Part shown: positions 1,467 through 56,591 of the stretch, one piece after another
How the letters are laid out: the number at the start of each line of letters is the position of its first letter
Numbering within the stretch: position 1 is the stretch's first letter
DNA from: the human T2T-CHM13v2.0 reference genome, Homo sapiens
Length of the DNA stretch: 64,000 nt
Assembly (NCBI RefSeq): GCF_009914755.1
Contig: NC_060941.1
Strand: one strand, 5' to 3'
Position numbers and translations under genes: made by a program
Notes under the pieces: generated by a model
What the model was told of the DNA's origin: nothing
Seen by the model: the letters and a program-made list of their open reading frames with translations, nothing else
The model's database searches: none

Positions 1467-1920
<454 letters not shown>

Positions 1921-2713
1921 TGCTTTTCTTACTTCTTACCACTTAAGCGCATATCCCTGAATGTTGTAGTTTAAGTTTTTCTGTTTTCTGAACTTTATAT
2001 AAAATAAACAACATATTCAGTCTATGTCTTCCGTTTATGGGTTTTTTTCATTCAACATTATGTTTTTGAGATTGATTCAAGTAATTGTCAGTAGTTCTAG
2101 TTTGTTTCTATACCTGTACAGTAAGTGTATATTACAATTTTTCCTGTGGTGTACAATGACGTGGTGTACAGTAGTGTTTCTGTATGGCATACTGTAAGGT
2201 ATTTTTATGTAGTAAGTATATACGACTACTTATTTTACTGTTGATAGGATTTGGGGTTTTTTTCTAATTTGGGGGCTACTATGGGTAACAACACTTATGA
2301 ACATTCTTATATATATCTCCTGGTGCACATGTACAAGTATTTCCATTGTGTATATGTTCACAATGGCTTGGTGAGTCATAGAGTATAAATATCTTGAGCT
2401 TTAGTAGAAATTGCCAAACTCTTTTCCATAGTGATTATTATCAATTCACATTTCCACTAGCAGAGTATGATTGTTTACATTCCTGTACTTTTTTGCCAAC
2501 ACTTGCTATTTTCAGTCTTTGTAGTTTTAACCATTCTGGTGAGTATATAGTGATATTTCCTTGGGTTTTCGACTTTTTTCTCATGACTAATGAGATTGAT
2601 AGTCTCTCTTCTGAAGTGCCTGTTTAAGTCTTAAGCCAATTTATATATAGGCTGGTCTGTCTTTTTCTTATTGATTTGTAGGAGTTCCTTATGTATTCTG
2701 GATATGAGCCCTT

Positions 2714-2785
2714 TATGGCCATACCACCCTGAATGTGTCTGATTTCAGAAGCTAAGCAGGGTCTAGCCTGGTTAGTACTTGGATG
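2714..2785 (+). pseudogene. 5S rRNA pseudogene, 3'-truncated and tailless
   Basis: TATGGCCATACCACCCTGAA...GAAGCTAAGCAGGGTC..GCCTGGTTAGTACTTGGATG matches the 5' part of 5S rRNA with a ~10-nt internal deletion. Flanked by direct repeat ATATGAGCCCTT (2702-2713 / 2787-2798). Confidence 0.9.
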
Positions 2786-2918
2786 CATATGAGCCCTTCA
2801 TCAGTTACGCTTGTTGCTCTATCTTCTTTCCCTCTGTGGGTTAACTTAAATAGTCTTTTGGCAAATGCGAATTTTAAACTTTCACGTAGTTCAGTTTATT
2901 AAAATATTTCTATGATTA

Positions 2919-3291
<373 letters not shown>

Positions 3292-3306
3292 TTAAGAAGT
3301 GCTTCC

Positions 3307-3580
3307 CTTGCCCCGCCCCGCCGCGGGACTTGGGGCGGCGCTCTACTTCTGCGGAGAAGGATCGACGAGCTTTCCGGAGAAAGATCCGCGAGCTTTCCGG
3401 AGCCGGAGCCGGGGCGAGCAGCCAAAAGGCCCGCGGAGTCCCGCTGGGCCGCCCCGGAGGAGCAGCTGAACCGGGGGCCGCACCTGCCAGGCCGACGGGT
3501 CTGGCCCAGACTGGCGCCGAGGGGTTCGAGGGGTTCGTGTGCTGTGGAGACGCAGAGGATCCAGGCGGTGCGGTCTGAGT
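3307..3580 (+). promoter_or_regulatory. CpG-rich segment carried in as the IL6ST 5' UTR
   Basis: High GC and many CpGs, with GC boxes (CCCCGCCCC) at the start of the retrocopy, inside AT-rich flanks. Regulatory activity is not shown. Confidence 0.45.
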
Positions 3581-5942: not shown

Positions 5943-6244
<302 letters not shown>

Positions 6245-6495
6245 TAAAAGTACTCATTTTTTATTCATCAATAATTAGTAATCTGACTCGTTTCAAAAAT
6301 TTGTTTATTATTGACAACCTCTTTGAAGATCCATTTCACAAACTCAACAGAGTGCCACGATTAAGAGCTAGGGATCCCCCAAACTACCTCAAGCATCTAA
6401 AAAATTGCCATTTTTTAAAGGCTTAAATTGTAGTAGTAAAGGGGGAAAAAACCCATAAATCATCTAAAAAATTGCCATTTTTAAAGGCTTAAATT

Positions 6496-6503
6496 GTGTG
6501 TGT

Positions 6504-6542
<39 letters not shown>
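6496..6542. repeat. (TG)n/(CA)n microsatellite
   Basis: Visible directly; ends about 15 nt before the MEIS3 TSD. Confidence 0.95.
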
Positions 6543-6543
<1 letters not shown>

Positions 6544-6569
6544 CATTGACCTTTCTTAAGACTTCAGAG

Positions 6570-7330
6570 GGTGGAACTTCCGGATGTGACCACAGAGAGG
6601 AAGAGACCGGGAACGCGGAGCGCGGCCGCCAGCACCCCCGAGCCGCCGCCGGACCCCCGCCGCCCCGGGCCGCCCCCCGCCCCCCGCGGTCCCAGGTCTG
6701 TCCGTCTGGGGACGGCTCGATTCCCCGCAGAGCCGGGGGAGGGACGGGGGCGCCCAGGGGAGGGGGCCTCGGGCGCCCCGCCCGCGCCTGCTGCCCCGTC
6801 CCGGCGGTAATGCGCTCCCGGCCGTGACCCCCGCTGGGGGCGGGGGCCGGGATCCATGCGCGGAGCCCCCACCCGGCCCGGCGCCTGCGGCTGACGGCGG
6901 CGGGGGTTGGGGGGCGCGCGTCTGGCCTCCTGCCCACCCCCTGGCGTCGACATCACGGGCCGTCGGGGGCTGCGCCCTACCCCGCGGCCAGGCTCTGGAG
7001 GGACCCTGGAGGTGCCGCCGGCCTCAGCCCATGGCCCAAAGGTACGATGAGCTGCCGCACTACCCAGGCATCGCGGATGGCCCCGCAGCCCTGGCTGGCT
7101 TCCCAGAGGCAGTGCCCGCGGCACCAGGGCCCTATGGCCCTCACCGGCCTCCCCAGCCCCTACCCCCAGGCTTGGACAGCGACGGCCTGAAGAGGGACAA
7201 GGATGAGATCTATGGACACCCGCTCTTCCCCGTCTTGGCCCTGGTCTTTGAGAAATGTGAACTGGCTACATGCTCTCCCCGTGATGGGGCCGGAGCTGGG
7301 CTGGGGACACCCCGCGGCGGCGACGTCTGC
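6570..7330 (+). promoter_or_regulatory. CpG island of the MEIS3 retrocopy
   Basis: Very GC- and CpG-rich. ETS/GABP-type ACTTCCGG at 6576-6583 and several GC boxes. Confidence 0.6.
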
Positions 7331-8107
7331 TCCTCTGATTCCTTCAACGAGGACAACACTGCCTTCGCCAAGCAGGTTCGCTCTGAGAGGCCCTTCTTCT
7401 CCTCCAACCCAGAACTGGACAATCTGATGATCCAGGCAATCCAAGTGCTGCGGTTCCACCTGCTAGAGCTGGAGAAGGGAAAGATGCCCATCGACCTGGT
7501 CATCGAGGATCGGGATGGCGGCTGCAGGGAGGACTTCGAGGACTACCCAGCCTCCTGCCCCAGCCTCCCAGACCAGAATAATATATGGATTCGAGACCAT
7601 GAGGATAGCGGGTCTGTACATTTGGGGACCCCAGGTCCATCCAGCGGGGGGCTGGCCTCCCAGAGTGGGGACAACTCCAGTGACCAAGGAGTCGGGCTGG
7701 ACACCAGCGTGGCCTCTCCCAGTTCTGGTGGAGAAGATGAGGACTTGGACCAGGAGCCACGGCGAAACAAGAAGAGGGGGATCTTCCCCAAGGTGGCCAC
7801 CAACATCATGCGAGCCTGGTTGTTCCAGCACCTCTCACACCCGTACCCCTCGGAGGAGCAGAAGAAACAGCTGGCGCAGGACACGGGGCTCACCATCCTG
7901 CAAGTCAACAACTGGTTCATTAATGCCCGGAGACGCATCGTGCAACCTATGATCGATCAAACCAACCGCACAGGGCAGGGTGCAGCCTTCAGCCCAGAGG
8001 GCCAGCCCATCGGGGGCTATACCGAGACAGAGCCACACGTGGCCTTCCGGGCTCCAGCATCAGTGGGGATGAGTTTGAACTCGGAAGGAGAATGGCATTA
8101 TCTATAG
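7031..8107 (+). CDS. MEIS3P2: Intact 358-aa Meis3-like TALE homeodomain ORF (translation unproven)
   Basis: CCC ATG G at 7031, no stop until TAG ending at 8107. Meis motifs [15 protein letters not shown] and [25 protein letters not shown] homeodomain KKRGIFPK...HPYPSEEQK...WFINARRR at ~7769-7936. Confidence 0.7.
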
Positions 8108-9127
8108 AGGCTGATGCGGGAGAGACCCAGCCTCCGGCTGTGACCCCCAGCCTCACACCTGGCTCTGGTTCCCGCCTGGTCCTCTGGCTTCAGGATCCCA
8201 CCTCCAAAGGCCTCTCCGCTCAACGCCTACCTCCCTAGGGCCCTGCTGGGACATGGGGGCCTGAGTGCCCACCCAAGGGGCTCTCAAGGACACCGGCAAG
8301 GCCTCCAGGCTCTGAGCCCCGCTTCTGCCTTCACCTCTGCCTGGGACCCGAGCTGGGCTCCTGGGCCTTGGTCCCCAGAAGATGGCAGCTAGGGCCTCGC
8401 CGCGAGGACAGAGAAGGGACAGGGTGGCTGGGCAGTCAGGGAAGGAGGGTCGCCCGGATCCGACATTTTGGAGAGATTCTTTCACCCTCCTGTCCCCCCC
8501 ACCTCCCTTCTCTAATTTCTTCTTTTTTTAATGATAAAGTCTTAAAACACAGAAAAAAAAAAGACTTCAGAGAATTAGGTAGATGAAGCACTTTATACAG
8601 TATATATCTTCAGCTTAAATTTGTTTTGAGTATTTTTTTTATTTTTAAGTAGGCAAAGATTTAAAATTTTTTATTTTTAGTAAATGTTTGAAGCAAACTA
8701 AAAAGACGTGGGCAATATTTACCAAAACAAAACAGAACCCAAAAAATTGTACATCTTGATCTTAGCAAATATCCTTATTGTAGAGACACTTAATAAAGAG
8801 ATGGTATTTTAATATCTGCAGTTCTGAGGTAGGGTGTAACTTAGTTCTACATTGTGATTTAGGAATTTTTAAACCTTTCTTCTTCAGGGGAGAAGTGACC
8901 CAGGCCTCGAGTTTAGTGCTAAAGCCACTAGTGTACTTATGCTGTCACCTAACCACCACATGCGACATGGAGGCAGAGGCTAAATATAGGGGCTTTCTTA
9001 AGAAAGTGAGAGGAAATTAGCAAGCATTATTAGTGTTTGACTACTGCTATCAAGTGAATTCAAAGGAAACAGGTTTTTATGCCATATTTAAGTTACAGAA
9101 ACCAGGCATGCTTAGAATAGTTTCTAA

Positions 9128-9170
9128 GGTGACAGAGTGAGACTCCATCTCAAAAAAAAAAAAAAAAAAA
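9128..9170 (+). mobile_element. Extremely 5'-truncated Alu (last 24 nt plus A-tail)
   Basis: GGTGACAGAGTGAGACTCCATCTC followed by an A run. TSD AGAATAGTTTCTA at 9114-9126 and 9171-9183. Confidence 0.9.
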
Positions 9171-12100
9171 AGAATAGTTTCTAGAGGTTATTGGAGAATA
9201 GAAAGCTAAGAAAACTTGGTATACATTTACAATTGAAATATAATTACACTTTTTACTCTCAGAATATTATTCAGATTAGACTTCCTGTTTATCTTTTATA
9301 TTCTTGCATTGATATAATGCCTGATCCTTCAAAGTTCTTTCACATATTATATGATCTTCTTTATGAAAAAAAGTAGATGCTTTATTCTGATATATTCAGT
9401 TTCCCACTTTAGGCAAAAGTGGATTAATAGAATGATGAATTCAAAGTAGATGAGGAAAATCAGGCACAGAGAAGTAAAGGTAGGTACAGACCCAAATTCA
9501 CACAAGATAATGACATCACCAGCGTTTAAGTTGATCATCAAAGGCTGGGCTGGATTTGTCTTGCTGTATGTGTCAGGAAATTTATACCTATTACATTTTC
9601 CATTTTCTCAAAATAAGTCACATGATTGTAATGTTTAGCTGCAACTTTTCTCCTAATAAATAGTGTCATGAAGAATGTTATAGTGCGAAGTTTGTACATT
9701 TCAGGGTCAGTTATACAATGTGAACTCTTTATCTACGGGAATGAGAATGGAGGATCATTGAAGGCCATGATATAAACAAATTTGCATGTTGAAGCCTGTA
9801 TAAAACATGGTACAGTGAGTGAATGCCCCCATCCCCAAGAACACTTTATACATATTAAATGGATATATGATTACTGTGCAAAAATTCATTCTGGAAATGA
9901 ACATATATTTGAGCACTAATATGTAATGTACATCTTCTGCCCTAAGGAGAAAATAAATCATAAAACTTGTTTTACATTCAAAATTACTTTCCCGAGCATG
10001 TCTTAGAGTAATCTACGTGTTGATGTATGTAAATTGTATTTTAGGTAGGCAAAGAAACAAGTCTGGTTATTTATGTAAAAACTAGTCTAATAAAGTGAGT
10101 GGCTTTATCACTTTGAATCTTTAGTGTCTAAAAGTGGTGTTTAAAGTAATACTAGCACATCAGAAAACCTTGTGTGGACAAAACTAGTTCACTCACTGCT
10201 TCTGCAACTGCAGTTCCTCCCCTTAGGTTATAAAAAAAAAGGACCCAAATGTTACATGTGTTGATATTATGACTTGTCAGTTACTGATGTCTGTGGTATC
10301 CTACCCTCGTCTCTGAAACGGATAATACTGAATAATTATTAGAAAACTACAAGACTTCACACTTTGTACCATTAAAACCTAAAATTTTAATCCTATCCTT
10401 TTTTATTACAGATCAATCAGCACTCAGGAACAGAGCAGCAAGGAAAAAAAGGAAATTTCATTCATATGTTCTGTGTTCATATCTCTTCAGTACCTAATTG
10501 TTCATTTAATTTCAGCCTTATTCCTTCATAAGGGGTTTTACCACATGAAGTCATCCGATGACCCTAGCTCTTATTGTGAAGTTGAAGATGACTGGAGTAT
10601 ACTTACAAATGTTACAACTTAAAAATGTTACAAAACATTTATTAAAGCTCATATTTAAAGTAGAGCATCTAGTTTGAGAAGTAGACATCAATTATTAAAG
10701 ATGTCTTTTTTCTCCCCATTTAACTAGTTAAAACCATGACGTGTAAATGTAGAAGTAGAATAATCATATGGAATTCCCTAAAATATTTCTGTTTACTAAC
10801 ATATATTGACCAAGTACATCAAGCAGGAGAGCTCTTCCTTCATTCTGTTATAGTCCACATCATTCTAATTTTGCTCAGTTGTTATTAAAAGCATATTCCT
10901 AAACCATACACTTTTGTTTCAATAAAGTTTTATTTTGTTGGGATGAATAAAATATCAAAGTTATAAGCTACATGAGACAAAAGTTCAATTGTTCAAAAAA
11001 TTTACTGGGACAGCTTTCTATTATAGGTATTGTTAAATTATATTGCTCTGATAAGATTACTTTCTTTAAAAAGTTTGTACTTTTCTGTAAATTGAAAGAA
11101 TATGGAGTCATAAAATGGCAAGTGTTTTAGGGTTAGCGTAAAATTGGGCATTGTCATTGATTTCATAGATGATATAAACTAGCAGGCTTACAGCCTAATT
11201 CTTCTTTGGACTGGTCTTTGGCAGCAGTTCCTTTTCAGACTCAATAAACAGAATTCAGACAGATGTAAGTCAAAACAAAACTTTACAAAGCCAAGTGTAT
11301 TATCTTTTGCATTAACCTATTTTTTCCATCATACATGCTACTAGTATGTGCATTAGCATGATATTCTCATATACATTGCATTAAAAATTAAAAGGTAGCA
11401 GCTCAGGGTGAGCTCTTCTGTCATTCATTTGTTCCTAAATTTTTAAGGGCTTTTTCTCAGTCAATATTTGTATAAACTGGGTAGTTTAACTTCATTACCC
11501 ATTTCATTAAAGTTGATGGATTGTGATGAGATGCATTTAAGGCCAATAGTGACAGATTTTTTTTTAATCTCTTGAACACAAGCTTTGAATGATAACTACA
11601 GGTTTTAAGTGCTGTTAACATTAATACCATAATGTGATGTGTTAGAACCAAAGGGATATTTTAAAGGTAGATATCTGAAAATTCTCTAGTCTCAATGTAT
11701 ATATGTATTGAATATACTCTAAAAATAAATGTGCAATTTGCTAGTAGGACAATGCAGTGATTAGCATTAGGTATGTTTCTTCTTTTATATCCTAGCTATG
11801 TCCCACTTTCTTCTAAGTGCAATCCTTTCATGTTCACTTGTTGTTTTACCCCATCTACTCTAACTTCAGTTGGAAGCCTTGTCTAGAGTATAGTATGTGT
11901 TTTTACCTTTGCAGTGAATTGCATGTGCTAATTGTAACCACAGCTATTTTTATGTTGACATAACTCCAAGTGTTATATTAAATGTTCTATTTTATATTAG
12001 CTCTAATCCCTTAAGTAAATTTTAAGAAATAAATTCTTGTTCAAAAAAAAAAAAAAAAAAAAGAAGTGCTTCCTTGTCCTAAGGTCATGACAACTTTCAT

Positions 12101-24819: not shown

Positions 24820-25446
24820 TTAACCTAATTTAGTTATTGCTATGTAATCCAACTATGCTGGTTCTGCTGTACCTTATTAAATGTGTATTCATGTGTCTCA
24901 ACATTTTCTTTCAACAAATTCTTAGTTACACTCTTTTAGATGAATAGTTTGCTAGCAAGTTTAATTTGGGAAGTGATTAAAAATAAATCAGTGACTAATT
25001 GCATAATAACTTTAACAGGAATTAGAAAAAATAAAATAGTATTAAAATAGGATCTCATATCGAAAAGTATGAGAGGATGCTGTGTTTCATATGATTCTAG
25101 GATTACTAATAATACTTTCCTACTTAACATCAAATAAAAAGCTTAAGGCTATTAAAGTTTAGAGAAATGTATCCCATTTATTCTTAGATCAAAATATATC
25201 CTCTATTCATATGTTTGAATAAACTGAGAATGAGAATCTCATTCTCCAATTTGGCTACAAATAAATCCACATCTTCCCTCACCTGCACCAGCTCTTCAGC
25301 ACCTGGACACAGGACCGTGCTTCGCACATCTTGCTCAGCACGGTGCCCTGCACAGGGGAAAAGTTCCATGAGCAGATATTGAACCGAATTGAGCTAGTGT
25401 TCTTTTCTCTTTTCTTTTCTTTGCTTTGCTTCCCTTCGCTTCTTTT

Positions 25447-25858
25447 CCTTCCTTCCTTCCTTCCTTCCTTCCTTCCTTCCTTCCTTCCTTCCCTCCCTCC
25501 CTCCCTCCCTCCTTCCTTCCTTCTCTCTGTCTTTCTTTCCTATTATATCTCCCTTTCTTTTATTTCCTTTTTTTTTTTTTTGGCGGAGTCTCGCTCTGTC
25601 GCCCAGGCTGGAGTGCAGTGGCACACAATCTCGGCTTACTGTAACCTCCACCTCCTAAGTTCAAGCAATTCTCCTACCTCAGCTTCCTGAGGAGCTGGGA
25701 TTACAAGTGCGCACCACCACGCCCAGCTTTTTATTTTTAGTAGAGATGAAGTTTCACCATGTTGGCCAGGCTGGTCTTGAACTCCTAACCTCAAGTAATA
25801 CACTCGCCTTGGCCTCCCAAAATGCTGGGATTACAGGCATTAGCCACCACGCCCGACC
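25447..25858 (-). mobile_element. (CCTT)n/(CCCT)n simple repeat and AluS (~25567-25858)
   Basis: Visible simple repeat extending from the Alu tail. Confidence 0.85.
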
Positions 25859-30313: not shown

Positions 30314-33830
<3,517 letters not shown>

Positions 33831-35689
33831 AAGAGTGTGAGGGTCTCTCATAGGGGGGCATATTGTGATGGTAAGACAGAAATCAGTGGCATCCTTGAAA
33901 CGGTTGCTGGGAACTGAACTGCACCATCAGCAGAGAGGGCATAGTAGGTCCATTGGCGGCTGACCTATTAGAGGAGATACTGCGAGTGAGGTGCAGCTGC
34001 AGACTTGAGGCAGACTCACCAATGGTGAGGGAAGAGCAGCGAATGAGTCATAACCAGGGTCTGACCGTAAGGTGGCAGGATGTCAGCAAAGGCATGACTG
34101 GTGAGCTAAAAGGCCGGCTACTGGGTGGTGTCTGAAATGACCCTGTGATGAAAACTGTCCATGACCTGAGTGCTGAGTAATTGGTGAATAGGCCTGCAGA
34201 AGACACAATTATGTGAGGGACTTTGGGAAACCTGGGACAGCAAAAGCCACGGCACACTGAGGCTTGGAAAAATGGTTCCAAGGGGATGTAAAAGGAGTTG
34301 AAAGGTCTGGGTGGTAGTAGGCTTGGAGTTGCTGCATTGTGAGCAATGGCAGGCTAGAATGGGACAGGACCAAGAGGACTCAGAACTAAGCAGTAAGGTC
34401 TAAACACACTGTGTGTGTTGGAGGTGATGTCATAGGCACAAAAACTTGATCTTGGAGGTGGCTCAATCAACCATTTTGGGTCCTATCCATCTCTAATGGC
34501 TGCAAAGCACAACTGAGATGCCAAGTGTCTCTAGGAGGCACAGGCTGTAGAAACAGTGATAAGGGTGGCCTAAGGGTTAAACTCAAATGTGGCCTGAGGA
34601 GGGTGAAGAGCCTGAGGCCGACTGGTTGTAGATTTTGTCTGCCTGCCTTACTCTAAATATAGCCTCACAATTTGGACTCGATGGGGAAAGGGTGGGAGCA
34701 GGGTGAGGGATAAAAGACTACCACACATTGAATACAGTATAGACTCTTCGGGTGATGGGTGCACCAAAATCTCAGAAATCACCACTAAAGAACTTATTCA
34801 TGTAACCAAACACCACCTGTTCCCCAAAAACCTACTAAAATTTAAAAAAAGTAACAATAGCTTAACAGTGTTGAAAAGAATATAAGAATACAATAGTTCT
34901 TTCCTGATACAATTACATTTTCAATTTTATTAATTTAAGGGAGTATATTTGGGAATTCAGAAAGGTCAAGGGATGAGTACTCTTTAGATTTTTTAAAGGA
35001 AACATCAATTAGAATCATTTTGTTTTGCCATAAATAATGTCATATGCTGTTTAGTACACTGGAAATTTTTCTTCTATTATGTGACAAAAATCAAAGATGT
35101 ATTCCAAAAACTAATTTTCTCAACATCAAAATTTATGAGTAAATTATAATTTTAAAATTTTCCCTTAGAAATTCATGCATTCACAATGTTGATCTCCAGA
35201 ACAAGGATTGAATACATTAGTCAGACATCAGTTTCTTGATGTTTTGAATAATATAGTCTGGCAATTTCTTCTGTTTCTTAGCCTTCTGTATATAATACAT
35301 GGATATTGTCCATATTATTGAAATGCAAATTTATTGAAAGGATACTAGCATGTCCACTGAGATTTATAGTGTATCAGTTTTGGAAAAATCCCATCTCATT
35401 ATATGAAACTGTACTGAAATAAGAGCAAAACATTTGCAAACCATATAGCTTTAAGTAATTAGTGACTTGTTCAGGCCTGCCCCTTAAATTTTTCTGTTTT
35501 TGGAAGAAATCAATGAGTACAGACTGTTGAACTTGGATACTCCACATTTAAAGAATGCCATTTTAAATTCCATTCTTCCTGTAAAACTAACATTTTACAT
35601 CCAAAAAAATAAGTAAATATAGCCCCACAATTTGATGGAAATGGCAGGCTGTTGTATCATGTGGGACAATGGCTCATTCCCATTGAGTT

Positions 35690-36560
35690 GTGTGGTTAGT
35701 TGTCAATATGAGGGCCCATTGAACCTCTCCCTCTTTGTTATCAGGCAGAAGGACATTATCCACATAGTGCCACAAGTGGACATCAGGTGGCAGTCAGAGG
35801 GTAGCTAGATCTAGTCAATGCAACCTTGAGCCAGCAGAGGATTGTTGAGGTAGTCCATCAGATGCCTCCTAACGGTGTACTGTCAGCCTTCAAATCTGAA
35901 GGTGAACTGCACCTGATCTTCTTCACAAATAGACACAATATAACATGTTTGCCAGGTCAGTAACAAAACCAAGAGGGAGAAGCATTCTGAACTTCTTCAA
36001 AGACAATGACAATGCTGGGTAAGGGGACTCTAAAAGGAAGTACAGCCTTGTTGAGGTTGCGGTTTTTAGCAATGAGCCTTCATTCCTTTCCCTGGCCTTG
36101 AGAAAGGGCCATTGGTGAGTTAAAAGGTGAGATGGTGGGTTTCAGAACACAAGCTCTATTAACTGGGCAGATCCCCTCTGTGCCTTGCTTGGGTGATATT
36201 ATGAAGTACTGACCACCTGGAGGAGTCTGGGGAGCTGTAAAAGTTCCCAGTAGGCATGACCTACTTCCGTGCAAAGAACTTGGTGGGGTGAGACCCTCAG
36301 TTGGGGAACTGAAGTGCCAGAATGTCCAGGCCAATGATAGGAAATGGTCACTGAGAAATGGGCAGGAGAAACACTGGTGCTCAAGGGAGAAGGATGAGTC
36401 CTACCTTAACACTGAGCATGGCAGGCATCCTAAGGGCTCATCTTCCTCTCAGTCCATCAACGGGCACAGGAAGGCTGGTGCACTGCATGGGCAAAGCAGA
36501 GATAAGAATGACCCATTATCCAGTGTGTAATAAGACTATACACGTCTACAGGTTTGACCA
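35690..36560 (-). mobile_element. Fossil class III (ERVL-like) retroviral protease/RT fragment
   Basis: Manual minus-strand translation across frameshifts gives VLLHTG (DTG-like, ~36519-36536), VLKPTISPFNSP, E*RLIAKNRNLNK, DLANM, EDQVQFTFRFEG*QYT and LWHYVDNVLL (YxDD-like, 35755-35766), in retroviral pol order. Confidence 0.75.
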
Positions 36561-36579
36561 CCAGACTTGGATGTGATAA

Positions 36580-37650
36580 TCTGATTGACACAGGAAAAAA
36601 AAGCATTTGGCTAAATCCATCATATGATTAAAACCCTAACCAAACTAGAAATTGAAGAGTACTTCCACAATCTGGTCAAGTGCATCTAAGAAAACCTACG
36701 ATAAACATCCTCAACTAAGTTAGTGGGTAAAGAATGTTTACTCCATAAGATTGGAAACAATACATAAATAATCACTTTGACCACTTTCATCAACATTCTA
36801 CTGAAGGATTTTGCTCAAGAAATAATGCTAGGAAAAAAATCAGCCAATGGCTCTTCAAAACACTTAACGTGGAAAGGACACCCTATTCACTAAGTGGTTC
36901 TGGGAATAGTGGCTGACCATATGCATAAGAATGAAACTGGACCCCTCTCACTCACCTGTACAAAAATTAACTCAAGATGGATTAAAGGCCTAAATGTAAG
37001 ACCTAAAACTATAAAGATCCTGGGAGAAAACCTGGGAAAACTCTTCCAGACATGGGAATGCTCATACATTGTTGGTGGGTATGTCAATTAGTTCAACTTC
37101 TATGGAAAAAGTAGGGAGGTATCTCAAAGAACTAAAAGTACAACTACCTTTCGACCCAGCAATCCCACTACTGGGTATCTACCCAAAGGGAAAGAAATCA
37201 TTATATAAAAAGGCACTGCACTCCCATGTTTATCGCAGCATAACTTACAACAGCAAGGTCATGGAACCAAGGTAAGTATCCACCAACGGTTCATTAAATA
37301 AAGAAAATGTGGTGCATATACACCACAAAGTACTAGGCAGTCATAAAAAAGAACAAAATCATGTCCTTTGCAGCAACACAGATGCAGCTGAAGGTCATTA
37401 TCCTACGTGAATGCAGAAACAGCCAAATACTGCATGTTCTCATGAAGATGGAGAGAATACACTATGGGGACTCAAAAAGTTGGGGGGAAGAGTTGAAAAC
37501 GTACCTACTGGGTACAACCTCCAATATTTGGGTGATGGGTATGCTAGAAGCACACCCCCCCCCATTGTGCATGTGATATACATATAACAAACAAGCACGT
37601 GTACCTTCTGAATCTAAAATAAAATAGAAAAAGAAAAAAGCCAAAGAAAA
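36580..37650 (+). mobile_element. L1 ORF2/3'-end fragments (L1PB/L1MA-like)
   Basis: [21 protein letters not shown] and LPFDPAIPLLGIYPK peptides, then a 3' UTR ending AATCTAAAATAAAA. Confidence 0.8.
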
Positions 37651-37773
37651 ACATCCCGGGAATCCAGGGAGCAGCGGCTACTGCCTCCACTGCTCACTGC
37701 AGCCCGCAGATTCCACGCCGGCAGCTCCTGCCTGCGGGCAGTGGAGCTGCGGAGAATGGCGGGATGGGTCTAG

Positions 37774-38820
37774 GTGCCAGGGCCAGAGCCCAGGAGGGGC
37801 GCTGGGTGGGCGTCTGGCCGGCTTCTGCCTTGCACCGGAGCAGGGGTGCCTGGTGAAACAGTCAACCTGATGCTCTCTGGGCCCTGCCCACGTTCCCCTT
37901 CCATCCACCCTCCTTTGCATCTTTCTGTGCCTGGGGGCCCCATAGGAAGCGGTCACATCCAGACTCACCAGGCCTGAGATGCTGGAGGATGGAGAAGCAC
38001 TTGCCACCGGAAAAATCCTCCAGGAACACATGAACAAAACTTCGCCTGCACCTGGGACATCCTTCCTTACGGCTGGCCTACGAGGCAAGTGTTCTGCACA
38101 CGCTCCTTGGCTAACTCCAATGCAGAGGAGCACGTGAGCCCAACCGCCATGGCAGGTGCAGATCTTTGCCTCCCTTTCACAATGACTGTATTCAAATGAC
38201 ATATCCTGGAAGCCTCTTTCTGATAGGATGAGAGCAGACTCTGTACTACAACACAGATTGGATAAGTCTCCAACTCCGATTAGTGAAGATTATCCAGTCA
38301 GAGATGGAGACTATTATCCAATAAGAGTTGTCAAAAAAAGTTCCTTCTCACCCAATCAGAACCAAGCTTACAAGTACAGCAGTTGCGTACAGCCATGATA
38401 AAAGGGAAGCGAAGGCCCATTCCGCCATTTTCTTTTCGTGGAGGTTGGGCTCGCGTGCTTCTCTGCGCTGTGGTCGTCATGGACCGGAAGCGTGTGCGGC
38501 GCGCCTGCCTTGAGGCCAACATCAGGGAAGGGTGTCCCAGGTGCAGAGGAAGCGTCCTTCACGTGTTCCTGGAGGACTTTCGGCTCGCAAGCGCTTCTCC
38601 ATTCTCCCAATGTCTCGGGCCTGGTGAGTCTGGATGTGAGCGCATCCCACGGGGCCCAAGGCACAGAGAGAGAGAGAGGAACGGGGTGGAGGGAGGGAAG
38701 CGTGTGCAGGGGCCAGGAGCGCCAGGCTGCTCTGGCTTCCCGGCCCCCGCAGCCCGCCAGGAGCTGTGGCCCCGCTTGGGACAAGGCAGAGGCCTGCCCT
38801 CCTGCTGCTGGCGCTGTCAC
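37774..38820. promoter_or_regulatory. Diverged inverted duplication forming a candidate bidirectional promoter with two first-exon-like units
   Basis: Arms ~37774-38283 and ~38294-38820 are reverse complements. CCAAT boxes at 38257-38261 (-), 38318-38322 and 38352-38356 (+). YY1-type CCGCCATTTT 38422-38431, ETS-type CCGGAAG 38484-38490. CTG|GTGAGT donors at 38624 (+) and 37968 (-). Confidence 0.65.
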
Positions 38821-39599
38821 CTCCCTGTGGTCCTGCCTTCTGGGTCCCTGAGGGCCTTCTGTCATCTGGAACTGGAAATAAGTTAGTGAAGCGAAGTTTT
38901 GTGAATATTTATTGGCCTTTGCGTCTTTGTCTTCATTTTCAGTGCTGGCTTTTCTGTTGGGTCATTTGTGTTCTTACGTTGATTTGAAGAATTTAAAAAG
39001 GTATTCTATAAATTAATCCTTTACGGGGTCATTTCTAGTGCAGATAGTTGTTTCTTAGTCTGGTCATTGTACCTTAATTTTATTTAACATTTCTTTCTTG
39101 CTGTACAGTATATTTACATATACTGTAAATCATATGCTTTTCTATTTTTCTGCAAATAGGATATTTTACATGAGCTATTTTTGGATGTTAACCAATCCTG
39201 ACTTTTTTAGTATATCCCACTTGGTATCCATGTGTTACATTTTCATATGTGGTTTAATTCATATGTTTTTTTTTTTAGAATATTTGTATTTCTGTTAATG
39301 AAAGAGAGGGCGTATAATTTTTTTTCTAATGTCCTGTTCAGATTGTGGTGCCAACGTAATGCTGGCTTCACAAAACAAACTGAAAAATATTTCCTGTATT
39401 TCTTCTCTTTAGAAGAGTCTGAGAAATTTAGGTGTTTTCTTCCTTAAATATTTGGAATATGTCTTTAGACTAGGTATGGAATTTTCCATGTGGAACAGTA
39501 TTTTTGTTGGCTGGTTTGACTTCTAATAATTCAAATCCTTTGGTATATGTAGGAGTTTTCTTGTTTTATGTTATTTCTGTGCCCATTTTACTAAGTTTA

Positions 39600-41380
<1,781 letters not shown>

Positions 41381-43944
41381 CCAGCTCTGTTTATTAAAAA
41401 GGAGATACATACTGTTTATGAAAGAGGTGACATAATTTTGTTTATTTGTGTCCCATAATGTGTCCTGGTCCAATTGTGTCCTCAATGTAATGCCAGCTAC
41501 ACAAAAAATTTTTTAAATATTATCTTTATTTTCATTTTAGTGTTTTTCTTTGTATGGACTATTCTATAATTATGAGCTGGGAATTTTTCATTGTTCAGTT
41601 GTTTTTCTGATTTTTGGTAGACTGGACATTTTCCTGTGTTTCCTGACCATTTGCATCTCCTCTCCTGCTCTGTGCACTATCACCCTGCTCCAGCTGCTTC
41701 CCGGAGCCTCCCTCCTTCCTCTCCACCTGCCCGCGTCCTCCTTGTCCTTCAGTTTCTTCCTAAGGGCCCATGGGCTTTCTTTGGCTTTTACGTTCCTCTC
41801 ACTCCACCTTTGACAGTTGCTGGGCTTCCCATCCCCTGGGAGGTTTCAGAGGATGGGGAAGACAGAGGAGTGCAGTTGCCATGCAGTGCAATATGGGCCA
41901 TAATGTTCATCCTCCACGGCCTGTATTGAGGACTTGCTGTGTGCCAAGAATCTGCTCTAAGAATGTAACTGTGCTCCCTCACTTCATGCTCATAACCACC
42001 TGTGAGATGGGCAATGTTCTCATCCACTTTTACACAGAGAACACAGAGGCACAGAGGAGTTTCATAAATTGCTACCAAGGCCTTCCGCTGGTGTGCAGCA
42101 GGGTCAAACCCAGGCTGTCTGGCCCTGGGGTTCAGCCTCTCAAGTGCTCTGCTAGATGTTGGACAGGACAAACGAGACACAGAGAATGAACACCACCTGA
42201 CTTGGGCTGGGGAAGTCAGGGATGGCTTCCTGGAGGAGGTGACACCTCAGTGGAACCTTGAAGGAGGAGCAGGAGGAGCTGACCAGGCAATGAATAAGTA
42301 TGTCCAGGAAAAAGGAAAGGCCTGAGTGATGCTGGGAGGCTGGAGAGCTGGCCTTGGGTGTGTGGCGGAGGGGGGGCAGGAGATCAGGACCAAGGGTTTG
42401 GCCAAGGCCAGATCTAGAAGACTCGGGCCATCCCATAGTTGATACCTTATCCCAGGGCCAGGCAGGCCTTCCACTGCTCTGTGCGCACTGGTGGGCAGTG
42501 CCTCATGGGATGCTAGGAGCCTAGACCCCAGCCACCCACCTGGGCTCCTGAGACCCGAGGTGCAGGCACGGGGCTGGGAGGGGTTGCAGCTGATTTACAT
42601 TCAACAGATTGAGGGGAAAACTGCAGGTGCCTCGCTGTGCAGATGGAACCCACCGCCAGATGGACCCCGGAGACAGCCTAGATTCACAGCCTTTCCCTGC
42701 TGCTCTGTCCCCACACCCCAGGCGGGGAGCAAATCTTTTCTCTGATCATCTTTTGTGCTCACCACCCATATCCCAGACATGTACCCGACCAGGGGCTCAA
42801 ATACATACAGTTTCTGAGCGAGCTGGATAAGGCAGTGACCAGAGGCTGCCTCGACACAGGATGAAATTGCCCAGTGCTCTGGCACCACGAGTCAGAACCC
42901 AGCCAGAACTGTGACCTGGCAGTGGCAGAAGCTGTCTGGTGCTGCCAAATCAGCCCTGGCCAGTTGTTCATTGACCCCCTCTGGGACCTTGGCTGAGCCA
43001 CTTCCCCTCAGCTGTAAAATGAAGAAGACTGTCTTTCCTATTAGATATCCCTCAAAAACACAAAAGTGCTTTGAACCTGCCAGACTCCCTCTTGAAGAGT
43101 CACAAGAAAAGGCTCTGAGAAGTCCTGCAGGTAAAAAAATTTTTTGACTTTCTTTAACCCAACATTTTTCAAGCTAATTGACCACAGAGCTCTTTCTTGG
43201 TGCAACACCTGTTAACCGGCCAAGTGTGTGAGGAGGCACAAGTAGAGAGCTCTGAGAATCACCCTCCTTGGCTGCTCTCTGGTCTCAGGGTGCAGGAAAG
43301 AGTCTCCGTGCTACATCCCAGTCTGCGGTAGTCCAGGGTGTGAGCCCAGCCCACAGAGCTAGTGTCAGAGAGGAATTCCCTTTCTTCCCTTTCTGTTAAT
43401 GGAGCTTCTCCCTCAAGCTTCTACTCCACCTGGCTGGTGTCAGTCTTAGGGTTTTCATGCTCCTCTTTGGGCTTGATGGGGGTTCTGGGATTTTATGTAG
43501 GTTGAGATAGCAGTAGAGGAGGAAGGGCATGGACAGCTTCTCTGATCAGTTGGGCATCTGCCATCAGGTCAGTCGGGCATTATCTCCCCCTCAGGTCCGG
43601 TGGCTTTGGTGGCTTCCAGGCCATGAATGGGCCCTGGAGCCTCCCCAAGGCTGCCCTTGTCACATAGGATCCACTGCCGGACTTTACTCAGCCACTGCTT
43701 CACACTGTGGCAGGGTGGGTGGTAGCTCCCTCCTTCTCCACTCCCCAGCCCAAACTGGGGGAGAATTAGGAGTCTGTTTTTAATTTTGTTTGATCCTTTG
43801 ATTTTAGATTTGCTTTTGAATAGATAATATAGTCAGATGATTTGAAACTCAGAATGTATTGAAAGATTATTAATAAAGTCTTTTTTCCCTCTTTGTCCAC
43901 CAACTGCTCCCTTCTCGCCTCCCCTCGAGTAAGCAGTTTTCTTA

Positions 43945-48680
<4,736 letters not shown>

Positions 48681-49813
48681 ACAGTGGAATACTATGCAGC
48701 AACTAAAGTAGCCACCTAGCAGGATGTGTACCAGTATGGATACATTTTGAAAACACAGCTAAAAGCAAGGTGCAAGGGCATAATAAGCATAGATGGTGAG
48801 GGATAGAGCATATTACCATGTTACAAACCCGACACTCTAAAAGCACAATATAGTATATATAACATTGTGTAAAACACTCAAAACACCCAGAACAATACTA
48901 GGCATTATCATGGATACATACATATATAGTAAAAGTGAAAAACCATTCAAGGGATGACCACATAGCAATTTTAGGATAATGCTTATTACTCTCTGAGGTG
49001 GGAGGGTACATTGAAGCTTTAAAAAATTCTTCCTAGAATAAAAAGATTTTGCAAGTGTGGCAAAATTTAACTATTGTTAAGTCTGAGTACCTGTTTATCA
49101 TTATTCTTGGTAGTTTCCTGTATATTTAGAATATTAACAATCAAAAATTGAACAGGTGGAAGGACTGTACTGTGCCACTTTTCTGCTTCTGGTATGTGTA
49201 TGTTTCAGTGCTCTGTGCCTTCCACTGTGGTTCTCTATCAGGTTCATAGTGTATTTCTCTAAAGAAACATTGTAACTTACTGCTAAGTATCTTATGGCTA
49301 AGGAGATTGAAGATCAGCCTTGCTTCAGGGGCGTTGTTCACAGCTCAGCAGCAGAGGGCGCCACCCCATAGCTGATGTGCGGTGGGGCGGCCACACCAGG
49401 CAGCCCTCTTGGTACAGGGCCAGTGCCTCCCAGGGAAGCACTGCTCCCCCAGCTGCAGGAAAGAGGAATATTTAAATGCGTGCAGATTTCCCTTTCGCTT
49501 GTAGGAAGGGGTACAGAATCCAGCCATTTGGAAGCATACATCATGTTTCTCTGACTGTTCGTGGCCTCGGCTGTTTCTGAGGCTAATAATGCAAGAAACA
49601 GCACATGCCAAAGGCGTCTTTGCCACTGTGTCCATGAGCCTGCTGCTGACTTGCCAGGGGTTTTTTGTGATGTATTATTTTAGATTGAGGGGGTTCGTGT
49701 ACAGGTTTGTTACATGGGTATATTGTGTCATGATGGGGCTTTGGCTTGTAGTGGACTGATCGCTGCGGGAACTTTGTTGTTAAACTGACCAGGGAACTTT
49801 CCTTTTATTTTAA

Positions 49814-54699
<4,886 letters not shown>

Positions 54700-56591
54700 G
54701 TGAGTCTAGTGGGCACCCAGGCCATGCTTGCTTTTCACTTAATTACTGTGCGTGGGGCTCCCTGGTAGGGATGAGACGCTTCATGTCTCTCTGTGCAAGG
54801 CTCTGCTGTTTCTTTTCTGGGATCAGTCTGCATTACCAGTGCTACCGCATCACTAGGAACATTCCATCCAGTGCCCAGTTTCTGCCATGCTTAGCAGCAT
54901 AAGGGGCTGCTAAGCTTCTCACTTACATATGAAGGGCCAGTTCTAGCCAAGTATCCTGCTAGGCTTAAAGAATAGAAGTCCTGTCTAGGATGCTCCTTGA
55001 ATCTTAGTATTTATTAGTGCAGGGAGTGCACACTGATAAATACGAACCCACCACCTTGCACAGGTCACTCCCATGCAGTGGGAGAAGCTGGAATCACTCC
55101 TGAGGGGAGGAGCCACCAAATAAGGACACATTCCTCCCGGCCCAGGGATGTGCCTACTTATTTGACAACACCCATGGGCTACTTCAACAGGCCTTGACAT
55201 AACTCACTTTATTTTAAAAAGAGTGGAAAACATGCATTTGGCTGATGTATGACATTCCCCTCTGCTCTGGATGGGAAGAAACACATAGCCTATCAGCCCA
55301 GAGAGCTCTGCTAATAGTGACATTTAAGAGTATTTGGGACTACAGTTGCACCAGACAAGATCATTACTTTATAGCCGGACCTCTACCCTCTGGCCACCAA
55401 AGGATGTGGATTTTAGGAAAACTAGATTTTGCAGTGTTCCCTGTTGAAACAGCAGTGAGGGCATTCAGGGTGGCCTCTGTGTCTGCTGTTGTTTGTTTCC
55501 CTCTGTCTTGCTTCCCTATTGTCTGTCATTGGAAGAAGATCCCAGTCAGAACTTGTGTTGCTTCACATGGACGCTATTTTAATGATAAATGGTAAAAGGT
55601 AAGTCCTAAGTTTCCATGGTAGCCCTGAATAACCAGGTTCTTGTATGAGCTGCTGCATTTCTTATGTATACTGTGAGACACAGGCCATACCATGCAGTGT
55701 GAACCCTGGTATTCTAGGAAATCTCCGCATGCATCCTGGCAGTTTAGGACTCCCTATGCTGCATCCTGCATCTTCAGTCTTAACGTCATTGTTTTTTTAA
55801 ACACAGAATTTTCTTTTTTGATTTTCCGGTGATTTGCAACATTACTTTCTCAATATAGCAGTTTAATCCCTTACCACAAAACAGTTCAAATTTTGGAACT
55901 GACACCAATGAGAACGTGTCATGGTACTGAAATCAGGCATCATGATGATTTTGCCTGCCATTGTGTTTGGCAGGAAGTCAGACAAGTGCCAGTGATGGTT
56001 TCTTGTCTGATTTTGCACTTCTCTGGCAAGCTGTCACCTCTGAAGAGTTGACTATTGGGTAATTACTCGCTCATGGCTCGGTCACTCCTGGAACCTACCC
56101 CATGAGCAAGAACTAAAACCAACTCACACCCTCCAAGCTCCCGAAGCCAGCCAGTGTTTCCATCTTGGCTGAATGAGTTCTTGATTGAAACTCAATTTGA
56201 CTTTGGCAGTCATCTAATGAGAACTCAAAAGTCATCCTTGGTTCAGCCACAGCAAAATAACTTGCAGAACATTCTCTGATGAGATCTTCAAGTACAACTG
56301 AGAGAAGGTAAGAACACCCAAAAAGCACCTGGATCCTGACACGGGATTACCTGGTTCTTAAACTGTTTGCCCCCATGGGCACTCGCGGGGATGGTTGCAG
56401 CCATGCTGATAGGCATGAGATGAAGCACCCAGGCAGGAATGCAAATCAGCATTTATTGCCGGAACTCAGTGGCTACACAGTGGGATATTATCTAACTCAT
56501 CAATGATCTTCAGCCCTGTTACACTTTCAAAAATATTTGTATTTCAGAGTTAGAATAAGTGATGTTAAGGTATATGGGGAAGGAAGGTGGT

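What the first reader, a model, noticed from the sequence alone, without database searches (positions are those of the whole stretch)
37774..38820. Ancient fold-back palindrome producing two head-to-head promoter/first-exon units
Seen: ~510-530-bp arms mirrored around a ~10-nt spacer near 38288. Example: GATTGGATAAGTCTCCA (38256-38272) vs TGGAGACTATTATCCAAT (38305-38322); both arms carry GGCCTGGTGAGTCTGGATGTGA and TGTTCCTGGAGGA. Each arm has an outward-facing CCAAT box and a perfect CTG|GTGAGT donor (37968 minus, 38624 plus). The right arm also has YY1- and ETS-type motifs. Established: NF-Y, YY1 and GABP motifs typify bidirectional promoters. Inference: a bidirectional promoter made by inverted duplication of one promoter plus first exon, probably driving spliced lncRNAs. 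It does not resemble any repeat family I recognise.
Basis: partly seen in the sequence, partly recalled or inferred. Interest (0 to 1): 0.78.

Follow-up and report, generated by a model that had tools for sequence, protein, structure and literature searches.

The report
Old mirrored promoter pair at LINC02087
A short stretch of human chromosome 17 holding a promoter, a first exon and a splice site was copied in mirror image long ago; one copy now starts the non-coding RNA LINC02087, the other still looks like a promoter but has no known transcript, which makes it a tidy but fairly ordinary case.

Summary
The inverted repeat is real. The arms are 37863-38279 and 38298-38729, 78% identical, with a 10-18 nt spacer (score 162 against 13.6±1.4 in shuffles). 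They are about 420-430 nt, not 510-530. The left arm holds RefSeq exon 1 of LINC02087 (37969-38183, minus), and the mirrored CTG|GTGAGT is exactly its exon/intron boundary. The right arm has the fuller promoter: two CCAAT boxes, a TATA-like box, YY1 and ETS motifs, CpG o/e 0.69 against 0.34, and an intact donor at 38624. No RefSeq transcript starts there. The arms are not dispersed repeats. Genome searches found only six places, all on chromosome 17: five complete palindromes (15.72, 16.84, 20.58, 20.89, 31.52 Mb) and one truncated copy (5.07 Mb). Masked repeats used as controls gave 20 to 10,948 candidates. In a tree, left arms and right arms separate with 100/100 support. Arm-to-arm K2P is about 0.32 at every locus, against 0.02-0.15 between loci. 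The inversion therefore predates the segmental duplications, and the arms have not converted each other since. No source promoter was found elsewhere. Best reading: an ancient head-to-head duplication of a promoter/first-exon unit, shown to be used on the left and only inferred on the right. Modest interest.

The parts
37863..38279 (-). Left arm of the inverted repeat (417 nt); CpG-poor (10 CpG, o/e 0.34)
38280..38297 (.). Spacer left unaligned in this copy (18 nt). The oldest paralog shows mirror symmetry further in, so the original spacer was about 10 nt, around 38284-38293.
38298..38729 (+). Right arm of the inverted repeat (432 nt); CpG-richer (24 CpG, o/e 0.69)
37816..37845 (-). Possible outer extension of the left arm, pairing with 38770-38798; marginal
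   Evidence: score 14; 13 of 300 shuffles reach it; I8
38770..38798 (+). Possible outer extension of the right arm; marginal
37969..38183 (-). LINC02087 exon 1 (RefSeq NR_110839.1), wholly inside the left arm. Both qPCR primers of PMC12305945 lie within it.
   Evidence: hub gene table; (primers at 38156-38175 and 37997-38016)
37963..37971 (-). Left 5' splice site CTG|GTGAGT. The exon ends at 37969, which is the RefSeq exon 1 boundary.
   Evidence: hub gene table
38621..38629 (+). Right 5' splice site CTG|GTGAGT (intron would start at 38624); no annotated use
38257..38261 (-). CCAAT box of the left arm, facing outward, about 75 nt upstream of the LINC02087 start. The TTATCCAAT context is kept in 10 of 10 arms.
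38318..38322 (+). CCAAT box 1 of the right arm, the mirror of the left box
38352..38359 (+). CCAATCAG, the second CCAAT box. It is the only CCAATCAG in the 64-kb window and is intact only in right arms (CCTATCAG in left arms).
38397..38404 (+). TATA-like GATAAAAG (TATAAAAG in the alignment consensus). Its mirror partner in the left arm lies at the annotated LINC02087 start.
38423..38431 (+). YY1-type motif CGCCATTTT. It lies in a 10-nt stretch that all left arms lack.
38484..38490 (+). ETS/GABP-type motif CCGGAAG. One of 3 in the window; kept in 4 of 5 right arms and absent from left arms.
38396..38623 (+). Predicted (not observed) right-arm first exon, the mirror image of LINC02087 exon 1. 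In 38400-38623, CpG o/e is 0.89 and GC is 0.60.
   Evidence: inference
38215..38774 (.). Longest stretch that just meets the 500-bp CpG-island criteria (GC 0.566, o/e 0.65, 29 CpG); covers the right arm only

Best explanation
A unit of about 430-480 bp, made of CCAAT boxes, a TATA-like box, a first exon of about 215-230 nt and a consensus 5' splice site, was duplicated in inverted orientation right next to itself, head to head, with about 10 nt between the copies. A fold-back or template-switch event is the likely cause (inferred). This happened long before the chromosome 17 segmental duplications. The result is two outward-facing promoter/first-exon units whose start sites would lie about 215-250 bp apart, which is the layout of a bidirectional promoter. 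The left unit is in use today: it is the start, first exon and donor of the spliced lncRNA LINC02087 (shown by annotation). The right unit keeps the more complete promoter: two CCAAT boxes, a TATA-like box, YY1 and ETS motifs, and intermediate CpG content that has resisted decay. It also has an intact donor, so it probably fires as well and may hold the shared region open (inferred, not shown). Because the duplication also copied the splice donor, both directions carry an early U1 site, and both run more than 2.4 kb without a poly(A) hexamer. That would let either direction yield a stable spliced RNA (inferred). The module was later carried to four more chromosome 17 loci, plus one fragment, by segmental duplication. 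Confidence by part: inverted duplication older than the segmental duplications, about 0.9; left unit is the LINC02087 start, about 0.9; right unit also active, about 0.5.
For: The inverted repeat is far above chance. The left arm equals RefSeq LINC02087 exon 1, and the mirrored donor sits exactly at the exon boundary (hub table). LINC02087 is reported in human oocyte RNA-seq and by qPCR with primers inside this exon (PMC12305945, passages; primer mapping). The right arm clusters motifs that are rare in the window within 135 nt: the only CCAATCAG in 64 kb, 1 of 2 CGCCATNTT, and 1 of 3 CCGGAAG. These motif classes are enriched at divergent promoters (PMC3082894). CpG o/e is 0.59-0.69 in 5 of 5 right arms and 0.25-0.37 in 5 of 5 left arms. 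At 11 or more aligned sites a right-arm CpG faces TpG or CpA in the left arms, against about 2 the other way, and about 11 of 18 comparable right-arm CpGs are shared with the copy that diverged at K 0.15. Stretch 38215-38774 just passes CpG-island criteria. The arms are not a dispersed repeat: 6 first-look candidates, all on chromosome 17, for two different queries. The 22-mer donor block at up to 2 mismatches hits 11 known arms plus one chrX site, with 1 hit for the reversed control. Controls gave 20 to 10,948 candidates. Left and right arms split 100/100 in the tree. Arm-to-arm K2P is 0.32-0.34 within each locus, and 0.29-0.39 for left-right pairs from different loci. Same-arm copies at different loci differ by only 0.017-0.155. 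Outward PAS-free runs are 2853 and 2479 nt; only 5 of 1080 sampled positions in the window do as well.
Against: The table supplied shows no RefSeq transcript, exon or functional element for the right arm, and I had no CAGE, PRO-cap, RNA-seq or methylation data. The annotated TSS is on the arm that has lost the second CCAAT box and lacks the YY1 and ETS motifs and most CpGs, so motif content does not predict usage here in a simple way. The donor region is not demonstrably under constraint: 31 of 40 invariant columns gives permutation p 0.30 once gaps count as missing; the longest identical run of 22 gives p 0.046; within right arms 8 of 45 block columns vary against 71 of 387 elsewhere. The right-arm CpG island is marginal. 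The PAS and skew asymmetries were noticed post hoc and may reflect the orientation of a few Alu or L1 insertions. The oocyte qPCR primers have only 2-3 mismatches to the paralogs, so expression of this particular copy is not secure.
Confidence: 0.6

Rival explanations
1. One-sided promoter. Only the left unit (LINC02087) is transcribed. The right arm is a silent relic of the duplication, or serves only as upstream CpG-rich and NF-Y/YY1/ETS regulatory sequence for LINC02087, and its donor is never used.
For: No RefSeq gene or functional element on the right arm (hub table). No significant extra constraint on the donor block. The 48-codon ORF in the would-be right exon is not kept in frame in the paralogs. 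In the oldest copy (20.89 Mb) a 118-bp deletion removes the second CCAAT box, the TATA-like box and the YY1 site.
Against: A silent, methylated relic should have lost CpGs as the left arm did. Instead 5 of 5 right arms keep o/e 0.59-0.69, and most CpGs are shared across K 0.15. The consensus donor is intact in 5 of 5 right arms and in the fragment. The + strand is free of PAS hexamers for 2479 nt downstream.
Confidence: 0.3
2. The arms are two opposed copies of an interspersed repeat, such as a solo LTR of the kind that often drives oocyte transcripts, or the long terminal inverted repeats of a fold-back DNA transposon.
For: Arm length (about 430 nt), CCAAT plus a TATA-like box, and oocyte expression of LINC02087 all fit an LTR promoter. 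I could not run RepeatMasker or Dfam. The genome search skips very common words and scores only the best candidates.
Against: If the arms belonged to a family, other members should resemble each arm about as much as the arms resemble each other. The search does detect the arm-to-arm match at 70-73% identity (E 1e-42 to 1e-48), yet it finds nothing outside six chromosome 17 segmental-duplication loci. Controls from the same window returned 4494-10,948 candidates (Alu, L1 or LTR-like). A 159-nt stretch of a masked interval returned 20 candidates on more than 10 chromosomes at 73-95% identity.
Confidence: 0.04
3. Hairpin-RNA locus. A transcript reading through both arms folds into a long imperfect double-stranded hairpin that is processed or edited (small RNAs, ADAR).
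For: The 867-nt stretch would fold as one hairpin: -533 kcal/mol against -308±8 in 20 shuffles, z -28.
Against: That fold follows trivially from any inverted repeat. No annotated transcript spans both arms (hub table). The annotated TSS lies inside the left arm and points outward. Inward-facing strands carry many PAS hexamers: 5 on the left flank and 11 on the right. No Rfam family matches within the arms; the best is a sub-threshold miRNA model at E 0.27, 28 bits against a gathering score of 100.
Confidence: 0.03

Closest known systems
Bidirectional (divergent) promoters of human gene pairs, enriched for GABPA/NRF2, NRF1, NF-Y and YY1 sites (PMC3082894, Introduction and Discussion passages read)
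   Same: Two outward-facing first exons with start sites that would lie less than 1 kb apart. CCAAT, YY1 and ETS motifs sit between or just inside them. The composition is mirrored and there is a CpG-rich core.
   Different: Here the two sides are true sequence homologues (78% identical), not merely mirrored in composition. Only one side has an annotated transcript. The CpG island is marginal and one-sided, and the products are non-coding.
Head-to-head paralog pairs made by inverted duplication. These are about 21% of linked human duplication events in PMC3194840 (Table 2 passage). The COL4A gene pairs are the textbook case (recalled; the preprint 10.1101/2023.10.18.563013 was seen only in a search listing).
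   Same: An inverted duplication places two homologous 5' ends back to back, so they share one regulatory region.
   Different: Only about 0.43 kb (promoter, exon 1 and the start of intron 1) was duplicated, not whole genes. The spacer is about 10-18 nt, so the promoters themselves form the palindrome.
Large sex-chromosome palindromes kept near-identical by arm-to-arm gene conversion (Rozen et al. 2003; seen only as a reference-list entry in PMC10760527; content recalled)
   Same: Inverted arms around a short spacer, carrying transcription units.
   Different: Arms here are about 1000 times shorter and 22% diverged. Left-right distance within a locus equals that between loci, so there has been no conversion since the segmental duplications.
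Chromosome 17 low-copy repeats (LCR17p / SMS-REP / NF1-REP type segmental duplications; names recalled, not tested)
   Same: The palindrome travels inside duplicons: at least 26 kb at 97-98% identity (20.58 Mb), about 13 kb at 87-97% (16.84 Mb), and shorter pieces at 31.52, 20.89 and 5.07 Mb.
   Different: The palindrome is cargo that is older than these duplications (K 0.32 against 0.02-0.15). It is not a product of them.
Template-switch mutations that create hairpins and new miRNA genes (PMC10710096; only the start of its significance statement was seen in a search listing)
   Same: A one-step replication error that writes a reverse-complement copy next to the template would produce this geometry.
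   Different: The arms are hundreds of nt rather than tens. The proposed product is a pair of promoters, not an RNA hairpin.

Membership tests
Inverted duplication / palindrome | Two adjacent arms that are reverse complements well above chance | tested here: met
   Score 162 against 13.6±1.4 in 100 shuffles; direct-orientation control 19; 320 of 408 aligned bases identical
Inverted duplication / palindrome | Short central spacer (fold-back geometry) | tested here: met
   18 nt unaligned in this copy; about 10 nt in the 20.89 Mb copy
Bidirectional promoter | Two transcription start sites on opposite strands less than 1 kb apart | not testable with these tools
   The left TSS is annotated at 38183 (-). 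The right TSS is only predicted at about 38396-38430 (+), with no annotation and no expression data to hand.
Bidirectional promoter | Enrichment of NF-Y, YY1 and GABP/ETS motifs | tested here: met
   CCAAT occurs 5 times in 867 nt against 83 in 64 kb. The only CCAATCAG in the window, 1 of 2 CGCCATNTT and 1 of 3 CCGGAAG are here. This shows motif presence only, not binding.
Bidirectional promoter | CpG island spanning the shared region | tested here: inconclusive
   38215-38774 just meets GC 0.55 / o/e 0.65 / 500 bp. It covers the right arm only; within the left arm itself no stretch passes (o/e 0.34), and the only qualifying stretch in the left half, 37570-37839, lies outside the arm.
Spliced lncRNA first exon | Annotated exon ending at a consensus 5' splice site | tested here: met
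   Left: RefSeq exon 1 37969-38183 ends at CTG|GTGAGT (hub table). Right: the same consensus is present but no use is annotated.
Interspersed repeat (LTR / DNA transposon) pair | Many dispersed copies about as similar to each arm as the arms are to each other | tested here: not met
   6 candidates, all on chromosome 17; 22-mer: 11 known arms plus 1 chance-level hit; controls gave 20 to 10,948 candidates. Dfam and RepeatMasker were not available.
Segmental duplication cargo | Copies over 1 kb at 90% identity or more, with collinear flanks | tested here: met
   20.58 Mb: window 29171-55666 at 95-99%. 16.84 Mb: 31489-44417 at 82-97%. 31.52 Mb: 37441-39103 at 95%. 5.07 Mb: 38587-40480 at 89-94%. 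The 20.89 Mb copy is older (83-86%).
Structured RNA / miRNA hairpin | Match to a curated RNA family, or a transcript spanning both arms | tested here: not met
   No Rfam match within the arms at or near a gathering score; no annotated spanning transcript (hub table)

The most novel reading that the evidence does not exclude
One inverted duplication, roughly 60-100 million years ago, created a symmetric bidirectional promoter in a single step. Because the copy brought its own strong 5' splice (U1) site, the 'antisense' direction was born able to make a stable spliced RNA, rather than the short-lived upstream transcripts usual at promoters. The two sides then specialised. The right became a CpG-rich promoter that stays unmethylated in the germline. 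The left became a CpG-poor promoter now used for the oocyte-expressed LINC02087. Segmental duplication then multiplied the module into a small chromosome 17 family of five paralogous divergent promoters.
Probability: 0.3. Interest if true: 0.5.

Novelty: new member of a known kind. Interest (0 to 1): 0.3.

Why it matters
If both sides fire, this is a clean natural example of how a divergent lncRNA pair can arise in one mutational step. The duplication supplies the opposite strand with promoter elements and with an early U1 site, the feature thought to decide whether promoter-upstream transcription yields a stable RNA. The two arms and the five paralogous copies also form a built-in comparison. 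The same ancestral sequence now exists in CpG-rich and CpG-poor states, and with or without the YY1, ETS and second CCAAT sites. That suits reporter or methylation studies of promoter decay. There is a practical point too: LINC02087 exon 1 has four near-identical paralogs at 95-98% identity. Short-read or qPCR measurements such as the oocyte-ageing result may therefore mix copies. Otherwise this is an ordinary piece of duplicated, non-coding chromosome 17 sequence.

Tried and rejected
1. Source promoter elsewhere. DNA searches of the window's own genome used the right arm, the whole 20.89 Mb palindrome at E up to 10 and the 22-mer donor block at up to 2 mismatches. They found only the six chromosome 17 loci plus one chance-level chrX hit. 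No independent single-copy source turned up.
2. Profile searches for more distant relatives. A DNA alignment was not accepted. I built a sequence-only covariance model (R1), but this genome cannot be searched with it. Relatives below about 70% identity therefore remain untested.
3. Special constraint on the donor block. It looked striking in the alignment, but it is not significant once the deletions in the 20.89 copy are treated as missing data. I dropped it as evidence of selection.
4. Coding first exon. There is a 48-codon ORF from the ATG at 38479 to the donor. In the paralogs 1-nt indels shift the phase at the donor (145 or 146 nt from ATG to donor). The ATG is lost in the 20.89 copy and absent in left arms. 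Rejected.
5. Known RNA family. There is no Rfam match within the arms; only Alu/SRP-like matches at 39740-40813.
6. Arm-to-arm gene conversion. Within-locus left-right distances equal between-locus ones. Rejected.
8. Literature. 'LINC02087' returned 2 papers, both on oocyte ageing. Searches combining bidirectional promoter, inverted duplication, palindrome and lncRNA, LCR17pA and MEIS3P1, and bidirectional promoters, head-to-head, paralogs and inverted duplication found no description of this palindrome. Subscription journals are not covered.
9. I tried to place the paralog loci relative to named genes. No annotation was available for them, so gene names for those loci are left out.

Full report
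OBSERVATION. The sequence at 37600-39000 contains a genuine inverted repeat. Local alignment of the reverse complement of the left side with the right side gives arms 38279->37863 and 38298->38729, with 320 matches, 88 mismatches and 33 gap positions (78% identity without gaps). With +1/-1 scoring the score is 162. In 100 shuffles the mean is 13.6±1.4 (max 19), and the direct-orientation control scores 19. The repeat finder recovers the same collinear blocks. The corrections are small. The robust arms are 417 and 432 nt, not 510-530, and only one further 30-nt block (37816-37845 / 38770-38798) is marginal (13 of 300 dinucleotide shuffles reach its score). The unaligned spacer is 18 nt in this copy. 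The oldest paralog keeps mirror symmetry further in (CTCTGATTGG...CAATCAGAG), which implies an original spacer of about 10 nt and one more mirrored CCAAT pair at the centre.

ANATOMY. According to the supplied RefSeq table, the left arm contains LINC02087 exon 1 (37969-38183, minus). A TTATCCAAT box about 75 nt upstream of that start is kept in 10 of 10 arms.

The right arm carries the matching CCAAT (38318) and several further elements:
- CCAATCAG at 38352, the only one in the 64-kb window.
- A TATA-like GATAAAAG at 38397 (TATAAAAG in the alignment consensus).
- CGCCATTTT at 38423 (YY1 type), one of 2 CGCCATNTT in the window. It lies in 10 nt that all left arms lack.
- CCGGAAG at 38484 (ETS/GABP type), one of 3 in the window.
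- CTG|GTGAGT with the intron starting at 38624.

By mirror symmetry a right-hand first exon would run from about 38396-38430 to 38623. Nothing is annotated there. A 48-codon ORF in it is not kept in the paralogs: indels shift its phase at the donor, and the ATG is lost in the 20.89 copy. I therefore treat it as non-coding.

CpG ASYMMETRY. The right arm has 24 CpG (o/e 0.69, and 0.89 over 38400-38623). The left arm has 10 (o/e 0.34). Stretch 38215-38774 just meets 500-bp CpG-island criteria, and no stretch within the left arm does. The asymmetry holds at every paralogous locus: 0.59-0.69 in 5 of 5 right arms and 0.25-0.37 in 5 of 5 left arms. At 11 or more aligned positions a right-arm CpG faces TpG or CpA in the left arms, against about 2 the other way. 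About 11 of 18 comparable right-arm CpGs are shared with the copy that diverged at K 0.15. My inference is that the right arm has been largely unmethylated in the germline for a long time, as an active intermediate-CpG promoter would be, while the left arm decayed as methylated DNA does.

NOT A DISPERSED REPEAT, BUT MULTI-COPY. The window's genome is held (T2T-CHM13; the window is C17:15686001-15750000). A search with the right arm gave 6 first-look candidates, all scored and all on chromosome 17. A search with the whole 20.89 Mb palindrome at E up to 10 gave the same six places. The 22-nt donor block at up to 2 mismatches hit 12 sites: the 10 arms, the fragment, and one chrX site at 2 mismatches, with the reversed-pattern control giving 1.

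Controls from the same window behaved very differently. Five masked stretches gave 5277, 10,948, 4494, 9071 and 10,651 candidates on many chromosomes. A 159-nt stretch of a masked interval gave 20 candidates on more than 10 chromosomes at 73-95% identity. The search also detects the arm-to-arm similarity itself (70-73% identity, E 1e-42 to 1e-48). Members of a repeat family as old as the arm divergence would therefore have been seen. I put the 'two opposed TE copies' reading at about 4%, pending Dfam or RepeatMasker, which I could not run.

THE COPIES. The copies are:
- 15,723,863-15,724,729: this window.
- 20,581,572-20,582,443: 98% identical over the palindrome.
- 16,839,180-16,840,045: 96% identical.
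- 31,520,552-31,521,408: 95% identical.
- 20,886,888-20,887,576: 89% identical over aligned blocks. It has a 118-bp deletion that removes the second CCAAT box, the TATA-like box and the YY1 site of the right arm, and a truncated left outer end.
- 5,072,511-5,072,651: a fragment that starts 37 nt before the right donor.

Flank comparison (40 kb fetched per locus) shows how each copy is embedded:
- The 20.58 Mb copy is collinear with window 29171-55666 at 95-99%.
- The 16.84 Mb copy is collinear with 31489-44417 at 82-97%.
- The 31.52 Mb copy matches the window only over about 37441-39103, but it shares 6.8 kb with the 16.84 copy.
- The 20.89 Mb copy matches 37935-39107 and then scattered right-flank pieces out to window 63940 at 76-86% (mostly 83-86%).
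- The 5.07 Mb copy matches 38587-40480, inverted.

The palindrome is therefore cargo of chromosome 17 segmental duplications.

ORDER OF EVENTS. In a maximum-likelihood tree of the 10 full arms, right arms and left arms fall on opposite sides of a branch with 100/100 support. Left-right K2P distance within each locus is 0.32-0.34, and 0.29-0.39 for left-right pairs from different loci. Same-arm copies at different loci differ by 0.017-0.074, and by 0.13-0.18 for the 20.89 copy. The inversion therefore predates every segmental duplication, and the arms have not converted one another since. Using recalled primate and eutherian neutral divergences, which I did not test here, K 0.32 suggests roughly 60-100 million years, and 0.15 roughly 40-50. 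The CpG-rich composition inflates both figures.

WHAT I COULD NOT SHOW. There is no direct evidence of transcription from the right arm. The conserved look of the donor block is not statistically distinguishable from the rest: permutation p is 0.30 with gaps as missing, the longest identical run of 22 gives p 0.046, and variable columns number 8 of 45 against 71 of 387 in right arms and 2 of 44 against 55 of 373 in left arms. No Rfam family matches the arms. As RNA the 867 nt would fold into one long hairpin (-533 kcal/mol, z -28). That follows from any inverted repeat, and no annotated transcript spans both arms.

EXPRESSION IN PRINT. 'LINC02087' occurs in 2 papers of the library. In PMC12305945 (passages read) it is the most strongly age-associated transcript in human GV oocytes (log2FC -7.66 young versus old) and was followed up by qPCR. 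Both primers map inside exon 1, which is the left arm (38156-38175 and 37997-38016). The sense primer site is identical in four copies, and the antisense site differs by 2-3 bases in the paralogs. Copy specificity is therefore uncertain.

MECHANISM. Shown: an inverted duplication of a promoter, exon 1 and donor unit, and use of the left unit by LINC02087. Inferred: the right unit is the better-preserved promoter and probably also initiates, giving a bidirectional promoter with NF-Y boxes around the axis and YY1 and ETS sites on the right.

A further observation supports this but was made post hoc. Poly(A) hexamers are absent from the outward-facing strand for 2853 nt on the left and 2479 nt on the right, while 5 and 11 lie on the inward-facing strands. 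Only 5 of 1080 sampled window positions match both distances. T-versus-A skew on the + strand flips from -0.17 to +0.18 at the palindrome. Together with an early consensus U1 site on each side, this is the arrangement associated in the literature with productive rather than abortive promoter-proximal transcription. (The papers behind that idea were seen only in a search listing; the idea itself is recalled.) The orientation of a few Alu or L1 insertions could produce the same skew.

COMPARISON AND VERDICT. This works like a bidirectional promoter (motif classes as in PMC3082894). It arose like other head-to-head duplicates, which make up about 21% of linked human duplication events in PMC3194840. 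What is unusual is the scale, since only the promoter and first exon were duplicated, and that the palindrome is the promoter itself. It is a new member of known kinds rather than a new kind. Interest is modest, about 0.3.

Noticed in passing
window 35330-40875: Outward from the palindrome, both transcribed-sense strands lack AATAAA/ATTAAA: 2853 nt to the left on the minus strand and 2479 nt to the right on the plus strand. All 16 hexamers in 36000-40600 face inward. Only 5 of 1080 sampled positions in the window do as well. This was noticed post hoc.
   Followed up: partly
window 32000-48000: (T-A)/(T+A) on the + strand switches from -0.07 to -0.23 left of the palindrome to +0.18 to +0.35 right of it. 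The size of the switch suggests repeat orientation (insertions antisense to outward transcription) rather than mutational skew alone.
   Followed up: no
G000:C17:5072511-5072651 (L006): A truncated paralog begins inside the right arm, 37 nt before the donor, and continues through window-equivalent 38587-40480 in inverted orientation. The 20.89 Mb copy's left boundary also falls inside the left arm (window 37935). So two duplicon edges lie within the 867-bp palindrome.
   Followed up: partly
G000:C17:20886888-20887576 (L005/L011): This is the oldest copy (K about 0.15). It has a 118-bp deletion that removes the right arm's second CCAAT box, TATA-like box and YY1 site, and its right donor reads GTAAGT. 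Its centre preserves an extra mirrored CCAAT pair.
   Followed up: yes
window 41380-55633: This block, which includes SPECC1P1, has no counterpart between the matching flanks of the 20.89 Mb copy. It looks like a later insertion into the older arrangement, or a deletion in the other copy.
   Followed up: no
window about 40200-40500: The 20.58, 16.84, 31.52 and 20.89 Mb copies share about 2 kb that the window lacks at an Alu-rich point. This is consistent with an Alu-Alu deletion in this copy. Alu/SRP-like matches lie at 39740-40813 on the minus strand.
   Followed up: no
window 38479-38623: A 48-codon ORF runs from an ATG in good context to the right donor. In the paralogs 1-nt indels shift its phase at the donor, and the ATG is lost in the 20.89 copy.
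   Followed up: yes
window 25395-25553: This part of a masked interval is a low-copy dispersed element: 20 candidates on more than 10 chromosomes at 73-95% identity. It was used here only as a sensitivity control.
   Followed up: no
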